DNA of 64,000 nucleotides from a virus (IMGVR_UViG_3300033070_001087:16177-80176), one strand, 5' to 3'; shown: positions 22,957 to 63,488, counted from the stretch's first letter. The notes: generated from the sequence alone by a model not told the origin. Numbers and translations are program-made.

Positions 22957-25020
22957 AACTTTAGAGAGTCTGGCTGAGATATTATCTATGATTAGCTATC
23001 CTGAAATAGTGGACATAATAGCTAATAGAATATCAAAGCTGGATTCTATATTATAATGATTAATCCACGTTAAAGAGATTAATCATATTTCCAAAGCTTG
23101 AGTTATAACAGGTGAATGTAGTCCTGATGAAAGATGCTTTTCAAATTGCGAGGGAGTGACTTATAACTCTTGTTAAGGAAATAAGATAAATCATTTGCTT
23201 GAAGATAAACAATATACTAGGCATCCCTAAAAAGCCATTGGTTGTATATAAACTGTACTAGCAGTTGTGTTCCTGAAAAGGTATTAAATATTGTAGAGGT
23301 ATAGACTAGGGAAGACACCTTGTAATTAACGTAGTTTATATTCCACTAGAATTTGGACAAGTGATTAACCCACAGTGAGATTACCTATCAATCTGTGGGT
23401 TCTCTAATTAAGCTAGTTTATGAACAGCAACACTTCTTGTAGTAAGATGCGGTAAATACCTTAAATCTGAAAATCTAGTGAAAAGAGGTGTGATTCCTCA
23501 ACTAGATGTACCTATAACAGGATACTAGCATGTTTAATACCTGAGAAAGCCGTCGCCAGAAATGGAGTAGTACGTGGTATGATTGCAGTGGTGAACAAAG
23601 CCTGTTATTTTATTTTTCTGGTATAACCAGCATTTTAGCGACAGTTATTGTATTTAAAACTGCGTTGGTGGTAACATAAGAACCATTATTATTAACCAAA
23701 CATAACTGGTTACTTTTGATTAGTAAAAATAATGTAAGTTTAATCCTATTTAAAGGCAATGAATAACATTTACTATCAATTAGCGAAAGTGGGCATTAAT
23801 ACACGGATAGCTAATCAAAAGGTTTTAATAATAATTCATATCAAATACAACTTGTTATTATAATTATAACTGAGCTGTTGGTAGAGAATTGTAAAGCATA
23901 CTTGAATTTGTGGATATATTGCTTGTAAGACAGCAGTAGATAACGATATAATCTAAGTAAAGTATGTGGTGGCAGCATAAATTAATTCCCATAGTCTACT
24001 AAGTTAATTCAGATGTAGCAACCTTGTAAGTGGAGACCTCGCTGTAGGATAATCAGTATTAATTTATGCCTCAACAATAGTAATATTGTTGTAGTAGTTG
24101 TTATAGTAAAAATAGGTTGCAGACAATTAATTGAGCTTATTTTGAAGTTAATATGTGTAAGGTTATAACAATATTAATAACAACATTGTGCAGACTGGAG
24201 TGATTACCAGTAACAAACCATACAGGATAATACATAAACTGTATGTAGTTGATAGGTAAAATAGAGAAATCTATCTACTGATAATGACAACTATCAACGA
24301 GGTTAGCGAAGTCCTTGAATTATAAATTAAAAGTTACTAAGATAGAAATATCGACTTATTCCATTAGTGTTAGTGGATTTGGTGGATAAAAGGTAGTGTC
24401 TTCCATCAAAGTAATTATCTATGACTTAATTTATAATTCATAAAATTCATACTGATTAATAATTGTTGTTGGAGCATGCCCAAATGAGGGATAACTTTTA
24501 AAAAAAGCTTAGTTCAAACAGTAACGAAATTCCTGATATAGGCGTGTAAGTCTATTGGTTATTAATCAGTAATCTGAAGTAAGAAGTTATAAGTGAAAGA
24601 TGTTGCCAAACAGTGATATACATCTATAACTTTCTTACTGAAGATAAAAATACATGGAACTATTAGCATAAGGTATTGGAGTATGCAGATTTCCAAATGT
24701 TATTAACCTTTGATAGGAGATAAGATTACCAGTTCAAATCTGGTATAGTTCCCACAACCACTTGTCGTTTAAACAAGTATGGTTAGTCCAAGACAATTCT
24801 ATTGTAAGAATTTGTGCCAAGTAAGGTAGATCCGCCACTAAAATCACAGAGAATACTGAAGAAATAATATAACTTTAAAGAATAAGAGAGGTGATACTAT
24901 AGGTCTTTAAAGAAGTACAGAACAGAGTTGTTAACAGTAGCGTATCTAACTATAAACCGAGTTCTGGAAAAAATATAACTATTAATAAATCATTTACTAA
25001 CCAAAAAAACTAAAAACACA
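22957..25020 (+). ncRNA. ~2 kb ORF-free, hairpin-dense region; candidate large structured RNA(s) / Y-RNA locus
   Basis: No ORF of 60 codons or more in any frame across about 2 kb. More G and C than the flanks. Many local stems such as CCCACAG/CTGTGGG, GAGTTATAA/TTATAACTC and GTGGA...TCCAC. Contains the tRNA-like module at 24656-24754. Strand assumed from neighbouring genes. Confidence 0.35.
24656..24754 (+). ncRNA. tRNA-like element lacking anticodon arm (Y RNA-like tRNA mimic)
   Basis: Acceptor stem GAACTAT/ATAGTTC is 7 bp, or 8 with the G-C pair from 24656. U8-A9, then D-stem GCAT/ATGC. T-arm ACCAG-TTCAAAT-CTGGT. CCA encoded directly after the acceptor. The 40 nt between the D and T arms do not form an anticodon stem. 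Confidence 0.4.
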
Positions 25021-26433
25021 ATGAGTAAAGTCAATCCGCTTGTAAAACCTGAATCAAAATTCAGTAACGAAAGAACAGCTGGTGGAGCTGGTATAAAGTC
25101 TGCTAAACAAGACAATATATCCATGCTTAGAAGAACTGTGCTAGCAAACCTATTATGGGAAAAAAATGCTTATGTAGATGGTATTACTACAGCACAGCAA
25201 ATCGCAGAATTAATACCAAAATGCAATCCTAAGGAAGTTGCAAACTTAGCTATTGAAACGAGATTAGTTCAAAAACTAAGACACACTCCATTATTTATTG
25301 CTGTTGAAATGCTTAAACATAAAGAGCATAAAAAATATGTAGCAGATGTATTAGCTAAAGTAATTACTAGAGCTGATATGTTAACAGATTTTTTAGCTAT
25401 TTATCAAGTACAAAATGGTGGTAAACTTAAACCAATAGCTGCACAGGCTAAAAAAGGTTTAGGTAATGCATTTAATAATTTTAGTGAGTACCAACTTGCT
25501 AAATATGACAGAGATGCTGCCATTAAGTTAAGAGATGTTTTATTCTTAGTACATGCTAAACCACAGCAAGGTAAAGAAGAATTATTCTCCAAAATAGCAA
25601 ACAGAGAGTTAAAAACTCCTGATACATGGGAAGTATCGCTATCTACAGGTAAAGATAAAAAACAAACCTGGACAAGATTGATTGAAGAAGGTAAAATTGG
25701 TGGCTTAGCTATGCTAAGAAACATTAGAAATATGATGGAAGCAAGTGTTGATAAGAAAGTAATAAACAGAGGTTTAGAAACTTTAAAATCACAAATGCTA
25801 TTACCATTAGATTTCTTAAAAACTGCCAGAATCAATCCTGAATTTAGTAGAGAAATAGAAGATGCTATGATAGGCTCCTATGCTAATCTACCTAGAATAC
25901 CAGGTAAAACATTATTTGTATTAGACCGTTCAGGCTCTATGAATGCACGTGTTTCTGATAAATCAGACTTTACAAGATTAGATCAAGCAATGGCTATGGC
26001 TATGTTAGCTGCTAATCAATGTGAAGATTATACACTTGTATGTACAGCTGGTGCAGACCATAATTGGACACATACAACTGAGCTAATTAAATATCCTAAA
26101 AAAGGATTTGATATAGCAGATCAAATTAAAGGATTAAAAATTGGTTATGGTGGAATTTTCACCAGACAAGCTTTAGAATGGTGTGAAAAGAATGTGGGTA
26201 AAGTGTTTGACCGTATTATTGTGTTCTCTGATTCACAAGATATGGACAGAAAAAATAAAATTCCTAAACCTTTTGGTAAATATAACTATATTTGTGATGT
26301 ATCAGCACATAAAAATGGTGTAAACTATAAAGGCGTATGGACTGCTGAAATAAGTGGACATAGTGAGCACTTTTTAACTTATATAGCTGCCTATGAAGGC
26401 TTAGAGAATTCATTCTTGGAACAGGATGTATAA
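25021..26433 (+). CDS. rsr: Ro60-like RNA-binding protein (TROVE + von Willebrand A domain)
   Basis: 470 aa. Alpha-helical N-terminal half about 300 aa long. C-terminal vWA with MIDAS motif DRSGSM. Domain order and size fit Ro60/Rsr. Flanked by tRNA-like RNAs. Confidence 0.5.
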   Translation: MSKVNPLVKPESKFSNERTAGGAGIKSAKQDNISMLRRTVLANLLWEKNAYVDGITTAQQIAELIPKCNPKEVANLAIETRLVQKLRHTPLFIAVEMLKHKEHKKYVADVLAKVITRADMLTDFLAIYQVQNGGKLKPIAAQAKKGLGNAFNNFSEYQLAKYDRDAAIKLRDVLFLVHAKPQQGKEELFSKIANRELKTPDTWEVSLSTGKDKKQTWTRLIEEGKIGGLAMLRNIRNMMEASVDKKVINRGLETLKSQMLLPLDFLKTARINPEFSREIEDAMIGSYANLPRIPGKTLFVLDRSGSMNARVSDKSDFTRLDQAMAMAMLAANQCEDYTLVCTAGADHNWTHTTELIKYPKKGFDIADQIKGLKIGYGGIFTRQALEWCEKNVGKVFDRIIVFSDSQDMDRKNKIPKPFGKYNYICDVSAHKNGVNYKGVWTAEISGHSEHFLTYIAAYEGLENSFLEQDV

Positions 26434-26518
26434 AATATAAATATACTGTGGTGTATTACAGGGTTACTTCTTTTGGTGAAACAACACCCTGTTAACTTGT
26501 TCCCAGTATAAAAATAAA

Positions 26519-26653
26519 GTTGTCGGTAGCTCAGTGGTAGAGCAATGGTTTAAAAAAGCCTATTATGTCTATTCTTACATTATGGTATAGTGAAATAATA
26601 GTTACTTCAATTCGGCACCGTGGGTCCTGCGTTCGAATCGCAGTCGGCAACCA
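26519..26653 (+). ncRNA. tRNA-like RNA with ~67-nt insertion replacing anticodon loop (Y RNA/YrlA-like candidate)
   Basis: Acceptor (G)TTGTCGG/TCGGCAA(C). U8-A9. D-arm GCTC-AGTGGTA-GAGC. A stem ATGGT/ACCGT encloses a structured insert with CTATTAT/ATAATAG. Perfect T-arm CTGCG-TTCGAAT-CGCAG. CCA encoded at 26651-26653. Confidence 0.45.
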
Positions 26654-26837
26654 ATAGGATGGTGATTAAACAGTTACATCAATACAGAATTCACTCTTCC
26701 GTTAACAACAACACTGTTTAAAATGTTCCTCCTTTTCTTTTATTTGACATATAGTGGTGTCTTATAGTGTTACATCAAAATTATTCGTTACAATTTTCTC
26801 AAACACACTATAAATTGTTCCCTACGATGTCAAAAAT

Positions 26838-26908
26838 ACGTGTATAGTTTAATGGTAGAATAATGGTCTCCAAAACCATTGGTTGAGGTTCGAATCCTTG
26901 TATGCGTG
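26838..26908 (+). tRNA. tRNA-Trp (anticodon CCA)
   Basis: Hand-folded cloverleaf. Acceptor ACGTGTA/TATGCGT with 2 G-U pairs. U8. Anticodon stem ATGGT/ACCAT, loop CTCCAAA. T-loop TTCGAAT. Discriminator G. Confidence 0.5.
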
Positions 26909-27159
26909 CAATTTTATTAACAACTAAAAATAAAAGTGATTTTAGTTGTATTTAAATAACATTTAACTCTATTGATTGCCGTGAGGCAATTGGGTTTTTC
27001 ATAGTTTTATGGTTTTTGTGGACTAAATCCAGGCCGAGAGTAATACCAGTTTGGTATAGCTAAAGCAACCTGGATTTAGACTACTAACTCGTTTGAGCGA
27101 GTATAAATAGCAGTGTTAGGCTCAAAGCGTTATATTTATAGGTCACTAAAACAACCATT

Positions 27160-27468
27160 ATGAAAAAAATTATCAATTTATTTCCTCCATTTCAAATTAA
27201 TCAAATGCAGGAAGTGCAACACATTATCAAACAAATATTTGGTAATTCAAAACACGACTGTGAAATTATAATATTACACAGTTGTAATAATCCTCAATGT
27301 CCTATGGGTACTATTTATGGTATTATTGGTTCAGAAGAAGATGAAATAATGGCAATAAATTTTGCTATTGATCAAATTGACAAAGAAGAAAGAGATTTAA
27401 GATTTGTCATGAAAAACATAATTGCTTTACCTGAAAATAAATTAAAGCAAATGACTGAAAATAACTAA
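27160..27468 (+). CDS. hypothetical protein
   Basis: 102-aa ORF. Confidence 0.35.
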   Translation: MKKIINLFPPFQINQMQEVQHIIKQIFGNSKHDCEIIILHSCNNPQCPMGTIYGIIGSEEDEIMAINFAIDQIDKEERDLRFVMKNIIALPENKLKQMTENN

Positions 27469-63393: not shown

Positions 63394-63488
63394 GAGTGTG
63401 GCAGGATGCAAGCTTGGTTCGATTCCAGGGGTAGAGAGATGGTCTGCGTAGCTCGCTGTACAGGGGTTCAATTTCCCCTGCACACTCC
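63394..63488 (+). ncRNA. aberrant tRNA-like element (7-bp acceptor, two T-arm-like hairpins)
   Basis: Perfect acceptor GAGTGTG/CACACTC, then C. Internal hairpins CTTGG-TTCGATT-CCAGG and CAGGGG-TTCAATTT-CCCCTG. No canonical D or anticodon arms found by hand. Confidence 0.3.

What the first reader, a model, noticed from the sequence alone, without database searches (positions are those of the whole stretch)
24656..26653. Ro60-like (TROVE+vWA) protein flanked by two anticodon-less tRNA-like RNAs: candidate phage Y RNA / Ro60 RNP module
The 470-aa protein at 25021-26433 has a long helical N-terminal region followed by a vWA domain with the MIDAS motif DRSGSM. This is the Ro60/Rsr architecture.

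Directly downstream, at 26519-26653, is an RNA with a tRNA-like acceptor stem, a canonical D-arm (GCTC-AGTGGTA-GAGC), a perfect T-arm (CTGCG-TTCGAAT-CGCAG) and an encoded CCA. A 67-nt structured insertion sits where the anticodon loop should be.

Upstream, at 24656-24754, is a second element of the same design. Its acceptor is GAACTAT/ATAGTTC followed by CCA, its D-stem is GCAT/ATGC, and its T-arm is ACCAG-TTCAAAT-CTGGT. It has no anticodon stem.

Bacterial Y RNAs of the YrlA type are known to carry tRNA-mimicking modules and to be encoded next to rsr, including in some phages. This locus fits that pattern but the RNAs look divergent. In both elements CCA follows a 7-bp acceptor with no discriminator, or equivalently an 8-bp acceptor is followed by CA.
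Basis: partly seen in the sequence, partly recalled or inferred. Interest (0 to 1): 0.85.

Follow-up and report, generated by a model that had tools for sequence, protein, structure and literature searches.

The report
Phage Ro60 gene with Y-RNA array
A crAss-like gut phage encodes a Ro60-type RNA-binding protein followed by four small RNAs that share one conserved stem module, one of them built into a tRNA-like scaffold; this is an undescribed, rearranged relative of the bacterial Y RNAs called YrlA.

Summary
ORF 25021-26433 is a Ro60-type protein: Pfam TROVE and vWA, a DRSGSM MIDAS motif, and a predicted fold whose 13 best PDB matches are all Ro60.

The downstream element (26520-26651) is tRNA-like, with a 63-nt insert. 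Three stand-alone, circularly permuted copies flank it, at 26442-26510, 26653-26736 and 26747-26830.

Two covariance models find about 300 copies in about 100 phage loci. Every copy is on the TROVE strand and nearly all lie next to the gene. Covariation is strong (98% of cells paired versus 59% when shuffled). The module stays beside TROVE genes that have diverged to about 25% identity.

In GC-rich phages the same motif aligns to the Ro-binding strand of Rfam YrlA. I therefore read the array as YrlA/YrlB-like partner RNAs, and the tRNA-like copy as a circularly permuted YrlA with an open acceptor end.

The upstream element (24657-24752) is also tRNA-like but carries no module and is absent from the closest relatives, so its membership is unsupported.

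Protein-RNA binding is inferred, not shown. Verdict: a new variant of a known kind.

The parts
25021..26433 (+). Ro60-like protein gene (TROVE HEAT-repeat ring plus vWA domain with MIDAS motif DRSGSM), 470 aa
   Evidence: Pfam TROVE 1.9e-12 and VWA_2 1.3e-6. phmmer to the Thermus phage phiRo60 structures 9kop/9l5y gives 8e-10 over residues 34-409. The AF2 model (pLDDT 74.6) has all of its top 13 Foldseek PDB hits in Ro60/Rsr. It is 64% identical to crAss001 Gp96, annotated 'TROVE domain-containing protein'.
26442..26510 (+). Module copy 1, stand-alone (type B). Layout: helix B 5' strand ATACTG, UGGUG, helix A strand 1, UUACUUC, 16-nt loop, helix A strand 2 CCCTGTT, AACTTGTTC, helix B 3' strand CAGTAT. 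It starts 9 nt after the TROVE stop codon.
   Evidence: Model R2, built without any window sequence, scores it 57.7 bits, E 1.3e-11. It is about 97% identical in L205/L206.
26520..26651 (+). tRNA-like RNA read as a circularly permuted YrlA-like RNA. It has an open 7-bp acceptor, D arm, 5-bp anticodon stem AUGGU/ACCGU extended by GCC/GGC, module copy 2 at the tip, variable loop GGGUC, T arm and discriminator C.
   Evidence: Rfam tRNA 32.1 bits with a 63-nt insertion. Homologous elements lie 3' of TROVE in crAss001 (L001:5693-5836, 46.6 bits) and cr112_1 (L003:6211-6352, 50.2 bits). The acceptor stems covary.
26554..26611 (+). Module copy 2 (type A, helix B closed by a loop). Layout: helix A CUAUUAU/AUAAUAG, UAUUC, hairpin, UAUAGUG, then tail UUACUUCA.
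   Evidence: Model R1 scores it 49.7 bits, E 1.6e-10. This window sequence was one of the 16 seed sequences of R1. The independent support is the 142 other hits.
26653..26736 (+). Module copy 3, stand-alone (type B), tail variant UUACAUC. It starts 2 nt after the tRNA-like element.
   Evidence: R2 49.7 bits, E 1.3e-9. Nearly identical in L205/L206.
26747..26830 (+). Module copy 4, stand-alone (type B), tail variant UUACAUC. It ends 7 nt before tRNA-Trp.
   Evidence: R2 51.0 bits, E 5.9e-10. Nearly identical in L205/L206.
26838..26908 (+). Ordinary tRNA-Trp(CCA) that closes the array. It probably supplies the RNase P cut that frees copy 4.
   Evidence: Rfam tRNA 61.7 bits and ARAGORN. A tRNA-Trp sits at the same place in L205/L206.
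26972..26993 (+). Terminator-like hairpin followed by GTTTTT; possible end of the TROVE-RNA transcription unit.
   Evidence: Consensus scan only: 3 sites found against 1.1 expected. This is weak evidence.
24657..24752 (+). Upstream tRNA-like element with 7-bp acceptor, D arm with a 13-nt loop, aberrant 40-nt anticodon/variable region and a perfect T arm. Whether it belongs to the system is unsupported.
   Evidence: Rfam tRNA 31.6 bits when searched alone. No module (R1 at most 8 bits; R2 no hit). The region is not conserved in L205/L206. No exact 24-mer match in IMG/VR.

Best explanation
This is the Ro60 ribonucleoprotein locus of a crAss-like phage (family Steigviridae, relatives of crAss001).

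Anatomy. The TROVE+vWA protein gene is followed on the same strand by an array of four small RNA genes. All four share one structured module:
- helix B;
- an asymmetric internal loop (U-R-G-U-G on one strand, G-U-U-C-Y on the other, whose C-G and Y-R pairs covary);
- helix A (consensus ACUCU/AGAGU);
- a conserved single-stranded UUACUUCA directly 3' of helix A.

Proposed role of the module (inferred). It is the docking site for the phage Ro60 ring. In GC-rich relatives the same motif occupies the position of the Ro-binding 5' strand of YrlA.

The two forms.
- Three copies have their 5' and 3' ends in helix B and a short apical loop. That is the shape of a classical Y RNA or of YrlB.
- The fourth copy is the same module with helix B closed by a loop. 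It is mounted on the end of the anticodon stem of a complete tRNA-like body (acceptor, D arm, T arm, elbow nucleotides). The element connectivity is that of YrlA, but the chain break is at the acceptor end instead of in the Ro-binding stem. It is a circular permutation of YrlA.

Proposed maturation (inferred). The array is made as one early transcript with the TROVE mRNA. RNase P and RNase Z cut it at the tRNA-like element and at tRNA-Trp, because module borders lie 2-9 nt from tRNA(-like) borders.

Proposed function (inferred). By analogy with Deinococcus, Salmonella and Thermus-phage Ro60 RNPs, the RNAs gate the Ro60 cavity and/or tether Ro60 to host tRNA- or RNA-decay factors early in infection.

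Shown here: sequence anatomy, structural covariation, linkage and co-orientation with TROVE, and the relation to YrlA. Inferred: binding, processing and cellular function.
For: Protein.
- TROVE and vWA by Pfam.
- Homology to a solved phage Ro60.
- All 13 significant Foldseek PDB hits are Ro60/Rsr, full length, probability 1.0.

Module in the window.
- R2 was built from 14 sequences of other phages. It finds exactly three hits in 64 kb, all on the + strand and all within 400 nt 3' of the gene.
- R1 finds the fourth copy inside the tRNA-like element.

Conservation and structure.
- R1 gives 143 hits. R2 gives 158 hits in 98 sources. Every hit is on the TROVE strand.
- Type A pairs are 94.9% standard against 75.4% shuffled and 36-54% slid. 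All 9 pairs show double changes.
- Type B pairs are 98.0% standard against 58.6% shuffled and 31-54% slid, with 630 double-change cells.
- An independent test placed the 3' half by helix A alone. Helix B then pairs 5.11 of 6 positions against 3.45 +/- 0.07 for permuted partners.

Linkage across divergence.
- Modules lie immediately beside TROVE genes that are only 24-31% identical (L097, L102, L103, L114, L127, L173, L191).
- The motif UGGUG-N-GG-UUACUUC lies upstream of TROVE in Xanthomonas phage 10KY502B, Caulobacter phage CcrColossus and Brevundimonas phage Bambus.
- Three of 120 pattern matches in bacterial genomes sit next to a TROVE gene on the same strand.

Relation to YrlA.
- Rfam YrlA gives significant hits below its gathering score in those GC-rich loci (30-56 bits, E down to 3e-10).
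- These alignments start on the motif, matching CGACGGUUACUUC to cggCgaAUGCuu.
- In L278 the full order is helix B, UGGUG, helix A, UUACUUC, T arm, closed acceptor-like stem, D arm, helix A, GAUUCC, helix B.

Other support.
- The crAss001 homologue is an early gene (PMC8375218).
- Same-strand adjacency within 4 kb is the published signature of Y RNA genes (PMC4201824).
- Modules abut tRNA genes within 1-7 nt here and in other phages.
Against: - No experiment links this protein to these RNAs. Binding is inferred from linkage and from a positional analogy with YrlA.
- The published Ro-binding signature GNCGAAN0-1G / CGAA is absent, so recognition would have to differ.
- In several phage tRNA islands real modules occur with no TROVE gene in the 13-14 kb held (L086, L112, L199, L201, L107). 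The module may therefore work without an adjacent TROVE gene, or without TROVE at all.
- The YrlA hits in relatives are below Rfam's gathering score. The window itself gives no YrlA hit at E<=10.
- Alignments A7 and A11 were fitted to the models, which inflates pair counts somewhat.
- The single-sequence fold of the tRNA-like element is no more stable than shuffles (z -0.6).
Confidence: 0.68

Rival explanations
1. The tRNA-like element is an ordinary tRNA gene interrupted by a small intron (the module). The intron is spliced out to give a normal anticodon arm, and the TROVE protein is unrelated or acts as a splicing chaperone.
For: - Rfam tRNA passes its gathering score (32.1 bits) with one clean insertion in the anticodon loop.
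- ARAGORN in intron mode calls tRNA-Phe(aaa) with a 60-nt intron.
- Relatives with the module in the D loop keep perfect 5-bp anticodon stems and canonical 7-nt loops such as CUGUUAA, CUGAUAA and UUUGGGU.
Against: - The same module occurs three times as a free-standing, permuted unit outside any tRNA in this window.
- In relatives its insertion point differs: before or after the GG of the D loop, at the 26/27 junction, or at the tip of the anticodon stem. That does not fit one splicing mechanism.
- ARAGORN assigns unrelated anticodons and intron positions to homologous elements.
- No module-free allele was seen among about 100 loci.
- 63 nt is far too short for a group I intron, and no intron or ribozyme family matches.
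- Removing the module from D-loop types leaves a 22-nt D loop.
Confidence: 0.05
2. The module is a self-contained RNA element of phage tRNA clusters, for example a processing or stability signal or an undescribed small ribozyme. It works without Ro60, and its position next to TROVE only reflects TROVE genes sitting in tRNA-rich regions.
For: - Modules abut tRNA genes within a few nucleotides in tRNA islands that hold no TROVE gene in 13-14 kb.
- The module exists in two circular permutations, as many small ribozymes do.
- A Pistol ribozyme lies 250 nt further on in the window.
Against: - In the roughly 100 TROVE loci every copy is on the TROVE strand and nearly all are within about 1 kb of the gene. 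The side switches from 3' in crAss-like phages to 5' in other phages.
- Linkage survives protein divergence to about 25% identity and a change of host phylum.
- The motif aligns to the Ro-binding strand of YrlA.
- No Rfam ribozyme matches at E<=10.
- About 50 TROVE-less control loci (about 450 kb) that matched only the short pattern gave no R2 hit.
Confidence: 0.14
3. The upstream element 24657-24752 is a second Y-like partner RNA of the TROVE protein.
For: - It is tRNA-like (31.6 bits), on the same strand and 270 nt upstream of the gene.
- Like the downstream element it has G-1 opposite the base after the acceptor, followed by CA.
- In other phages the partner RNAs lie upstream of TROVE.
Against: - It has no module (R1 at most 8 bits with filters off; no R2 hit).
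- Its region has no similarity in L205/L206, where the downstream array is 77-89% identical.
- It has no match in IMG/VR or in INPHARED phages.
- A decayed tRNA, or one of the long-loop tRNA variants seen in crAss001 relatives, explains it equally well.
Confidence: 0.1

Closest known systems
YrlA (Rfam RF02553), the tRNA-like Y RNA of bacteria and some phages (Chen et al. 2014, PMC4201824)
   Same: - It is encoded on the same strand next to a Ro60/TROVE gene.
- It has a tRNA-like body with canonical D and T arms and elbow nucleotides.
- A protein-binding stem takes the place of the anticodon arm.
- A conserved single-stranded segment lies directly 3' of the first strand of that stem.
- In GC-rich phage relatives the YrlA model aligns onto the motif found here.
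   Different: - The window gives no YrlA hit at E<=10.
- GNCGAAN0-1G is replaced by RGRG-UUACUUCA.
- An extra conserved internal loop (UGGUG/GUUC) and an outer helix B lie outside the Rfam model.
- In the window the chain is broken at the acceptor end. The order is D arm, module, T arm with a free 3' end, not T arm, closed acceptor-like loop, D arm.
- Relatives carry the module in the D loop together with a full anticodon arm.
YrlB / classical Y RNAs (metazoan Y RNAs, D. radiodurans Yrn1/Yrn2)
   Same: The three stand-alone copies have the classical Y RNA shape. The 5' and 3' ends pair in a stem, a conserved internal loop or bulge follows, then a second helix and an apical loop. Several copies per locus are probably cut from one precursor, as reported for M. 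smegmatis YrlA/YrlB (PMC4201824).
   Different: The conserved nucleotides differ. There is no GGUCCGA/CGAA. The apical loops are short (16-33 nt in the window). Whether they bind Ro60 or any effector is untested.
phiRo60 with Yrl1/Yrl2 of Thermus phage phiLo (PMC12135203; PDB 9KOP, 9L5Y)
   Same: It is the closest solved protein (phmmer 8e-10; Foldseek 3e-15). It is a phage Ro60 with partner RNAs encoded beside the gene. It is reported to bind those RNAs and to form complexes with host PNPase.
   Different: Protein identity is only about 20%. The Thermus RNAs were defined by a CGAA motif in a bulge and lie upstream of the gene. They are not described as tRNA-like or as an array of permuted modules.
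[quoted passage not shown]
   Same: The processed form has an open 7-bp acceptor stem with a free CCA end on a tRNA-like body attached to the Ro-binding stem. That is the architecture the window element has as encoded.
   Different: In M. smegmatis the open acceptor arises by cutting a closed loop and leaves a two-piece RNA. Here the gene order itself is permuted and the RNA would be one piece.

Membership tests
Ro60 / TROVE protein family | TROVE (HEAT-repeat ring) domain detectable by profile | tested here: met
   Pfam PF05731, E 1.9e-12, 47.5 bits against a cutoff of 23.
Ro60 / TROVE protein family | C-terminal vWA domain with a MIDAS motif (DxSxS) | tested here: met
   VWA_2, E 1.3e-6, 29.4 bits against a cutoff of 27. 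DRSGSM at residues 302-307. D302, S304, G305, S306 and M307 are invariant in 15 homologues.
Ro60 / TROVE protein family | Overall fold matching solved Ro60 rings | tested here: met
   Foldseek against PDB: ranks 1-13 are all Ro60/Rsr (9kop, 9l5y, 2nvo, 1yvp, 2i91, 9nep and others), probability 1.0, TM about 0.55, 480-500 aligned columns. The next hit has E 5e-3. Model pLDDT is 74.6.
Ro60 / TROVE protein family | Binds Y RNA or misfolded RNA | not testable with these tools
   Needs EMSA, co-immunoprecipitation or a complex structure.
YrlA (RF02553) | Encoded within about 4 kb of a Ro60 orthologue on the same strand (PMC4201824) | tested here: met
   All four module copies lie 9-400 nt 3' of the gene on the + strand. 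The same holds in about 100 loci.
YrlA (RF02553) | Match to the Rfam covariance model at its gathering score (69 bits) | tested here: not met
   No YrlA hit at E<=10 in 24300-27300 or at E<=0.1 in crAss001, cr106_1 and cr112_1. GC-rich relatives reach 30-56 bits.
YrlA (RF02553) | GNCGAAN0-1G motif near the 5' end | tested here: not met
   A regular-expression search finds none in 26434-26840 or 24600-24800. The only CGAA is in the T loop. UUACUUCA occupies the homologous position.
YrlA (RF02553) | Order T arm, closed acceptor-like stem-loop, D arm, with the RNA ends in the Ro-binding stem | tested here: not met
   The window element runs acceptor 5' strand, D arm, module, T arm, acceptor 3' strand, with helix B closed by a loop. 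It is a circular permutation of the YrlA order, which is seen intact in L278 and L209.
YrlA (RF02553) | D and T arms with the tRNA elbow nucleotides (U8, A14, G18G19, A21, G53-C61, U54U55C56, A58, C48) | tested here: met
   Read directly from UA-GCUC-AGUGGUA-GAGC ... GGGUC-CUGCG-UUCGAAU-CGCAG.
Canonical tRNA | Cloverleaf match at the Rfam gathering score | tested here: met
   32.1 bits (downstream) and 31.6 bits (upstream) against 29. Both are marginal. True tRNAs in the window score 38-71 bits.
Canonical tRNA | 7-nt anticodon loop with U33 and a purine at 37 on a 5-bp stem | tested here: not met
   The downstream stem encloses 67 nt. The upstream element has no consistent anticodon arm.
Intron-containing tRNA (group I or other known intron) | Recognisable intron core, or an intron-less allele in relatives | tested here: not met
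   No intron family matches at E<=10. The insert is 63 nt. No module-free allele is seen in about 100 loci.
Known self-cleaving ribozyme classes (Rfam) | Match of the module to a ribozyme covariance model | tested here: not met
   No ribozyme hit overlaps 26434-26840 at E<=10. The Pistol hit is a separate element at 27087-27147.

The most novel reading that the evidence does not exclude
The tRNA-mounted copies are not mere mimics. They may be Ro60-tethered tRNA surrogates whose anticodon arm is deliberately exchangeable.

In relatives the scaffold and module are 100% identical, while the anticodon-like arm, variable loop and T stem are swapped for those of different tRNAs with compensatory changes. 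The loops are authentic-looking anticodon loops of Lys, Thr, Asn, Ile, Pro, Gln, His and others. In this window the whole cassette is replaced relative to relatives whose TROVE protein is 91-92% identical.

This pattern would fit an arms race. The phage Ro60 RNP would present decoy or sensor anticodon arms to host tRNA-targeting defences such as anticodon nucleases, or would recruit tRNA-specific host enzymes.
Probability: 0.15. Interest if true: 0.85.

Novelty: new variant of a known kind. Interest (0 to 1): 0.62.

Why it matters
- Ro60 and its Y RNAs are a conserved RNA-surveillance machine, and the role of the tRNA-like domain of bacterial Y RNAs is still unknown.
- crAss-like phages are among the most abundant viruses of the human gut. 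The crAss001 TROVE gene is annotated and is expressed early (PMC8375218). In the literature I could search, no partner RNAs have been described for it.
- This locus supplies candidate partners and a defined binding-module consensus that Rfam 15 lacks.
- It also supplies natural circular permutations and grafts of that module onto full tRNAs. These act as ready-made structure-function variants for asking what the tRNA-like domain does.
- crAss001 is culturable, so the system is directly testable.
- From my own knowledge, not checked here: gut-commensal Ro60 orthologues have been proposed as triggers of anti-Ro60 autoimmunity. An abundant phage-encoded Ro60 RNP in the gut would be relevant to that question.

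Tried and rejected
- Single-sequence folding does not support either element. The z-scores are -0.6 and -2.1, so I relied on comparative evidence instead.
- I first read the insert as lying in the anticodon loop of a real tRNA and tried to derive one anticodon. ARAGORN gave a different anticodon and intron site in almost every relative, so I dropped the intron reading.
- I looked for the published Ro-binding motif GNCGAAN0-1G / CGAA and found none.
- I searched the held literature for the motif sequence and for crAss + TROVE + Y RNA. Only primer-like chance hits came back, and two papers that merely mention the TROVE gene.
- Short-pattern scans of IMG/VR and of bacterial genomes returned mostly chance matches inside coding regions. 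They were useful only after filtering with the covariance models and a TROVE HMM.
- My first regular-expression classifier for type A versus type B was too noisy in AT-rich DNA. Models R1 and R2 replaced it.
- Comparative analysis of the upstream element failed. There is no similarity in the closest relatives and no exact 24-mer in IMG/VR.
- A TROVE-less crAssphage control (NC_024711) could not be fetched. About 50 TROVE-less chance-match loci served as a weaker control.
- I could not establish whether the TROVE-less tRNA-island phages (L086, L199, L107) carry TROVE elsewhere, because only 13-14 kb of each contig is held.

Full report
**Origin of the window.**
- The 470-aa ORF has thousands of homologues at 65-92% identity on contigs of about 97-105 kb.
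- It is 64% identical to Gp96 of Bacteroides phage crAss001, annotated 'TROVE domain-containing protein'.
- The neighbourhood holds a large terminase on the minus strand, and dUTPase and DNA polymerase on the plus strand.
- The window is therefore a crAss-like phage of the family Steigviridae. In crAss001 the TROVE gene belongs to the early transcription module (PMC8375218; PMC10136315).

**The protein.**
- Pfam gives TROVE (E 1.9e-12) and VWA_2 (E 1.3e-6).
- The MIDAS motif DRSGSM is present, and its D, S, G, S and M are invariant in 15 homologues.
- phmmer against PDB sequences finds only the Ro60 of Thermus phage phiLo (9KOP/9L5Y, E 8e-10, residues 34-409).
- An AlphaFold2 model (pLDDT 74.6) has all of its 13 significant Foldseek PDB matches in Ro60 structures: phage, Deinococcus Rsr, Xenopus and human. 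These are aligned over the full length with probability 1.0. The next hit has E 5e-3.
His refutation condition 'vWA only' is excluded.

**The two tRNA-like elements.**
- Downstream, Rfam tRNA scores 26521-26649 at 32.1 bits against a gathering score of 29. It finds a true 5-bp anticodon stem (AUGGU/ACCGU) that encloses a 63-nt insertion.
- The upstream element reaches 31.6 bits when searched alone.
- A scan for perfect T arms finds only 8 sites in the 64 kb, all on the + strand. Five are ordinary tRNAs and two are these elements.
- Both observations are real.
- The 'encoded CCA' is literally present but is not conserved in homologous elements.

**What the insertion is.**
- crAss001 and cr112_1 have unannotated tRNA-like elements with a similar 70-nt insertion in the non-coding gap 3' of their TROVE genes (46.6 and 50.2 bits).
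- I collected 80 loci around TROVE homologues from IMG/VR. ARAGORN in intron mode finds such an element 100-300 nt after almost every crAss-like TROVE gene, and often a second one. The assigned anticodons and intron sites are inconsistent.
- Alignment shows an invariant block AGTTACTTCA inside the insertion.
- That block occurs 2-5 times per locus, always on the TROVE strand. It also occurs outside tRNA-like contexts.
- The repeated unit is a module made of:
  - helix A (consensus ACUCU(G)/(C)AGAGU);
  - an asymmetric internal loop with ...AAUGUUC-Y on one strand and U-R-G-U-G plus 5-6 nt on the other, in which C pairs with G and Y pairs with R;
  - a variable helix B;
  - UUACUUCA immediately 3' of helix A.
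- The module exists in two circular permutations.
  - In type A, helix B is a hairpin and helix A is open, so the module can sit inside another RNA.
  - In type B, helix A is closed by a loop that begins with UUACUUCA, and helix B is formed by the two ends.

**Statistics for the module.**
- Model R1 (type A) gives 143 hits at E<=1e-3 in 81 sources, all on the TROVE strand.
  - 94.9% of cells are paired, against 75.4% after shuffling and 36-54% with slid partners.
  - All 9 pairs show double changes.
- Model R2 (type B) was built from 14 sequences, none from the window. It finds exactly three hits in the window, all on the + strand: 26442-26510 (57.7 bits), 26747-26830 (51.0 bits) and 26653-26736 (49.7 bits).
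- Across 98 sources R2 gives 158 hits, all on the TROVE strand.
  - 98.0% of cells are paired, against 58.6% shuffled and 31-54% slid, with 630 double-change cells.
- These alignments are fitted to the models, which favours pairing. I therefore ran an independent test that located the second half of type-B units by helix A only. Helix B then pairs 5.11 of 6 positions, against 3.45 +/- 0.07 with permuted partners.
- The window thus holds four copies between the TROVE stop codon (26433) and tRNA-Trp (26838): three stand-alone copies and one (26554-26611, R1 49.7 bits) at the tip of the anticodon stem of the tRNA-like element.
- Module borders lie 2-9 nt from tRNA(-like) borders. A terminator-like hairpin follows at 26972-26993.

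**Link to TROVE.**
- A pattern scan of IMG/VR returned many chance matches in coding DNA. It also returned genuine modules immediately upstream of TROVE genes that are only 24-31% identical to the window protein (L097, L102, L103, L114, L127, L173, L191).
- In cultured phages of Proteobacteria the motif UGGUG-N-GG-UUACUUC lies in the gap upstream of TROVE. This holds for Xanthomonas 10KY502B, Caulobacter CcrColossus and Brevundimonas Bambus, whose proteins are 36-39% identical.
- Three of 120 largely random pattern matches in bacterial genomes also sit next to a TROVE gene on the same strand.
- About 50 TROVE-less loci that matched only the short pattern gave no R2 hit.
- There are exceptions. 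In phage tRNA islands (L086, L112, L199, L201, L107 and some short loci) real modules are interleaved with tRNA genes, and no TROVE gene is present in the 13-14 kb held. Whether those genomes encode TROVE elsewhere is unknown.

**Relation to the known family.**
- Rfam has a YrlA model (RF02553). It does not hit the window at E<=10 or the crAss001 group.
- It does give significant hits below its gathering score (30-56 bits against 69; E down to 3e-10) in the GC-rich loci.
- Those alignments begin exactly on the motif. CGACGGUUACUUC is aligned to the model's 5' strand cggCgaAUGCuu, which contains the GNCGAAN0-1G element that Chen et al. propose as the Ro-binding site (PMC4201824).
- Reading L278 and L209 in full gives this order: helix B 5' strand, UGGUG, helix A strand 1, UUACUUC, (anticodon-like 'V' hairpin), T arm, closed acceptor-like stem-loop, D arm, helix A strand 2, G(A/U)UCC, helix B 3' strand.
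- The module is therefore the stem that carries the RNA ends in a YrlA-type RNA, extended by an internal loop and an outer helix that the Rfam model does not cover.
- On this reading:
  - the three stand-alone copies in the window are YrlB-like or classical Y-like RNAs with short apical loops;
  - the tRNA-like element has the same connectivity as YrlA (D arm, strand 2, GUUC, helix B, UGGUG, strand 1, tail, T arm), but the chain break is at the acceptor end and helix B is closed.
- That makes the tRNA-like element a circular permutation of YrlA. [quoted passage not shown]
- The defining YrlA tests fail (model hit, GNCGAA motif, element order). I therefore file it as a related variant, not as a member.

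**The upstream element.**
- It has no module (R1 with filters off gives at most 8 bits over 23000-25100; no R2 hit).
- The 1 kb upstream of the gene has no similarity in L205/L206, whose TROVE proteins are 91-92% identical and whose downstream arrays are 77-89% identical.
- It has no match in INPHARED or IMG/VR.
- It may be a decayed tRNA, an aberrant tRNA variant, or an unrelated tRNA-like RNA.
- Nothing ties it to the TROVE system beyond proximity and strand.

**Variation that remains unexplained.**
- Between the window and L205/L206, copies 1, 3 and 4 are about 95-100% identical. The tRNA-like cassette between them is replaced by a different one: another acceptor, another D arm, another module sequence, and an added UUCGA-UUUUGGU-UCGAG hairpin.
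- In crAss001, cr112_1 and L018 the second tRNA-like RNA is 100% identical over scaffold, module and 3' end. Its anticodon-like arm, variable loop and T stem are exchanged with compensatory changes.
- Across relatives these arms carry canonical-looking anticodon loops of many specificities. The module can sit in the D loop before or after GG, at the 26/27 junction, or on the anticodon stem.
- This argues against a simple intron. It suggests selection on the combination 'tRNA body plus module', with a rapidly exchanged anticodon arm.

**Mechanism, with status of each step.**
- Shown: a Ro60-fold protein gene; four co-oriented module RNAs; structure supported by covariation; linkage conserved across deep protein divergence; positional homology to the Ro-binding stem of YrlA.
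- Inferred: the protein binds the module; the array is co-transcribed early with the gene and cut by RNase P and RNase Z at the tRNA(-like) units.
- Inferred by analogy with Deinococcus, Salmonella and Thermus-phage systems (PMC4201824, PMC12135203): the RNP gates or tethers Ro60 to host RNA-decay or tRNA-binding factors.
- Main rival: a TROVE-independent tRNA-cluster element. The TROVE-less islands keep it alive.

**Novelty.**
- Phage Ro60 genes with adjacent tRNA-like Y RNAs are known. Chen et al. list 22 phages (PMC4201824), jumbo phages are discussed in PMC7824862, and phiLo in PMC12135203.
- As far as the held literature and Rfam 15 show, the following are new:
  - the module consensus;
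  - its array organisation in crAss-like phages;
  - the circularly permuted and tRNA-grafted forms;
  - the exchangeable anticodon arms.
- I rate it a new variant of a known kind, of clear interest to Ro60/Y RNA and crAss-phage specialists, and directly testable in crAss001.

Noticed in passing
window 27087-27147 (+): A Pistol self-cleaving ribozyme (Rfam RF02679, 57.9 bits against a gathering score of 34.5) lies 12 nt upstream of ORF 27160-27468. It is about 95 nt after the terminator-like hairpin that follows the RNA array.
   Followed up: no
window 23056-25021: About 2 kb has no ORF of 60 aa or more, directly upstream of the TROVE gene. At least its last 1 kb (24000-25020) has no similarity to the same position in relatives whose TROVE protein is 91-92% identical (L205/L206). 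Its content is unknown apart from the tRNA-like element at 24657-24752.
   Followed up: partly
L001:721-811 (crAss001), L003:2103-2192 (cr112_1), L002:1335-1420 (cr106_1): These are 88-91-nt tRNA genes with 13-20 extra nucleotides in the anticodon loop. They are annotated 'tRNA-OTHER (taat)' or tRNA-Ile and score 46-58 bits with Rfam tRNA. They lie 2-3 kb upstream of TROVE. They may be short-intron or expanded-loop tRNAs, which are not expected in phages.
   Followed up: no
L002:1431-1735 (cr106_1): A phage-encoded tmRNA (Rfam 74.3 bits, tag peptide DNTYRVAA) sits directly after two tRNAs in the early region upstream of TROVE.
   Followed up: no
L001:5948-6106, L003:6367-6524, L018:5341-5499: In the second tRNA-like RNA of three phages, the scaffold, module and 3' end are 100% identical. 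The 17-nt anticodon-like arm, the variable loop and the T stem are swapped with compensatory changes (CAGUAAA, UUAGGGA and UUUGGGU loops).
   Followed up: partly
L185:1-1000, L107:10384-10900, L199:1-3100, L086:4300-5400: Stand-alone modules are interleaved with tRNA genes in phage tRNA islands (up to 27 tRNAs in 14 kb) and abut them within 1-6 nt. Several of these loci hold no TROVE gene in the stretch available.
   Followed up: partly
window about 63413-63429 (+): A further perfect T-arm-like hairpin (CTTGG-TTCGATT-CCAGG) is present. It was not called as a tRNA by ARAGORN or Rfam.
   Followed up: no
L209:2253-2320 (Xanthomonas phage 10KY502B) and L210:1619-1686 (Caulobacter phage CcrColossus): Features annotated in GenBank as tRNA-Thr and tRNA-Gln overlap the UGGUG...UUACUUC motif. 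In L209 the feature also overlaps a YrlA-like Rfam hit (2263-2367). They are probably parts of Y-like RNAs mis-annotated as tRNAs.
   Followed up: partly
type-B modules in many loci, e.g. window 26478-26486 and 26795-26805: An A-rich run ending in (C)AC precedes helix A strand 2 in most stand-alone modules (…AAACAAC-ACCCUG, …CAAAC-ACACUAU). This additional conserved feature is not covered by my structural description.
   Followed up: no
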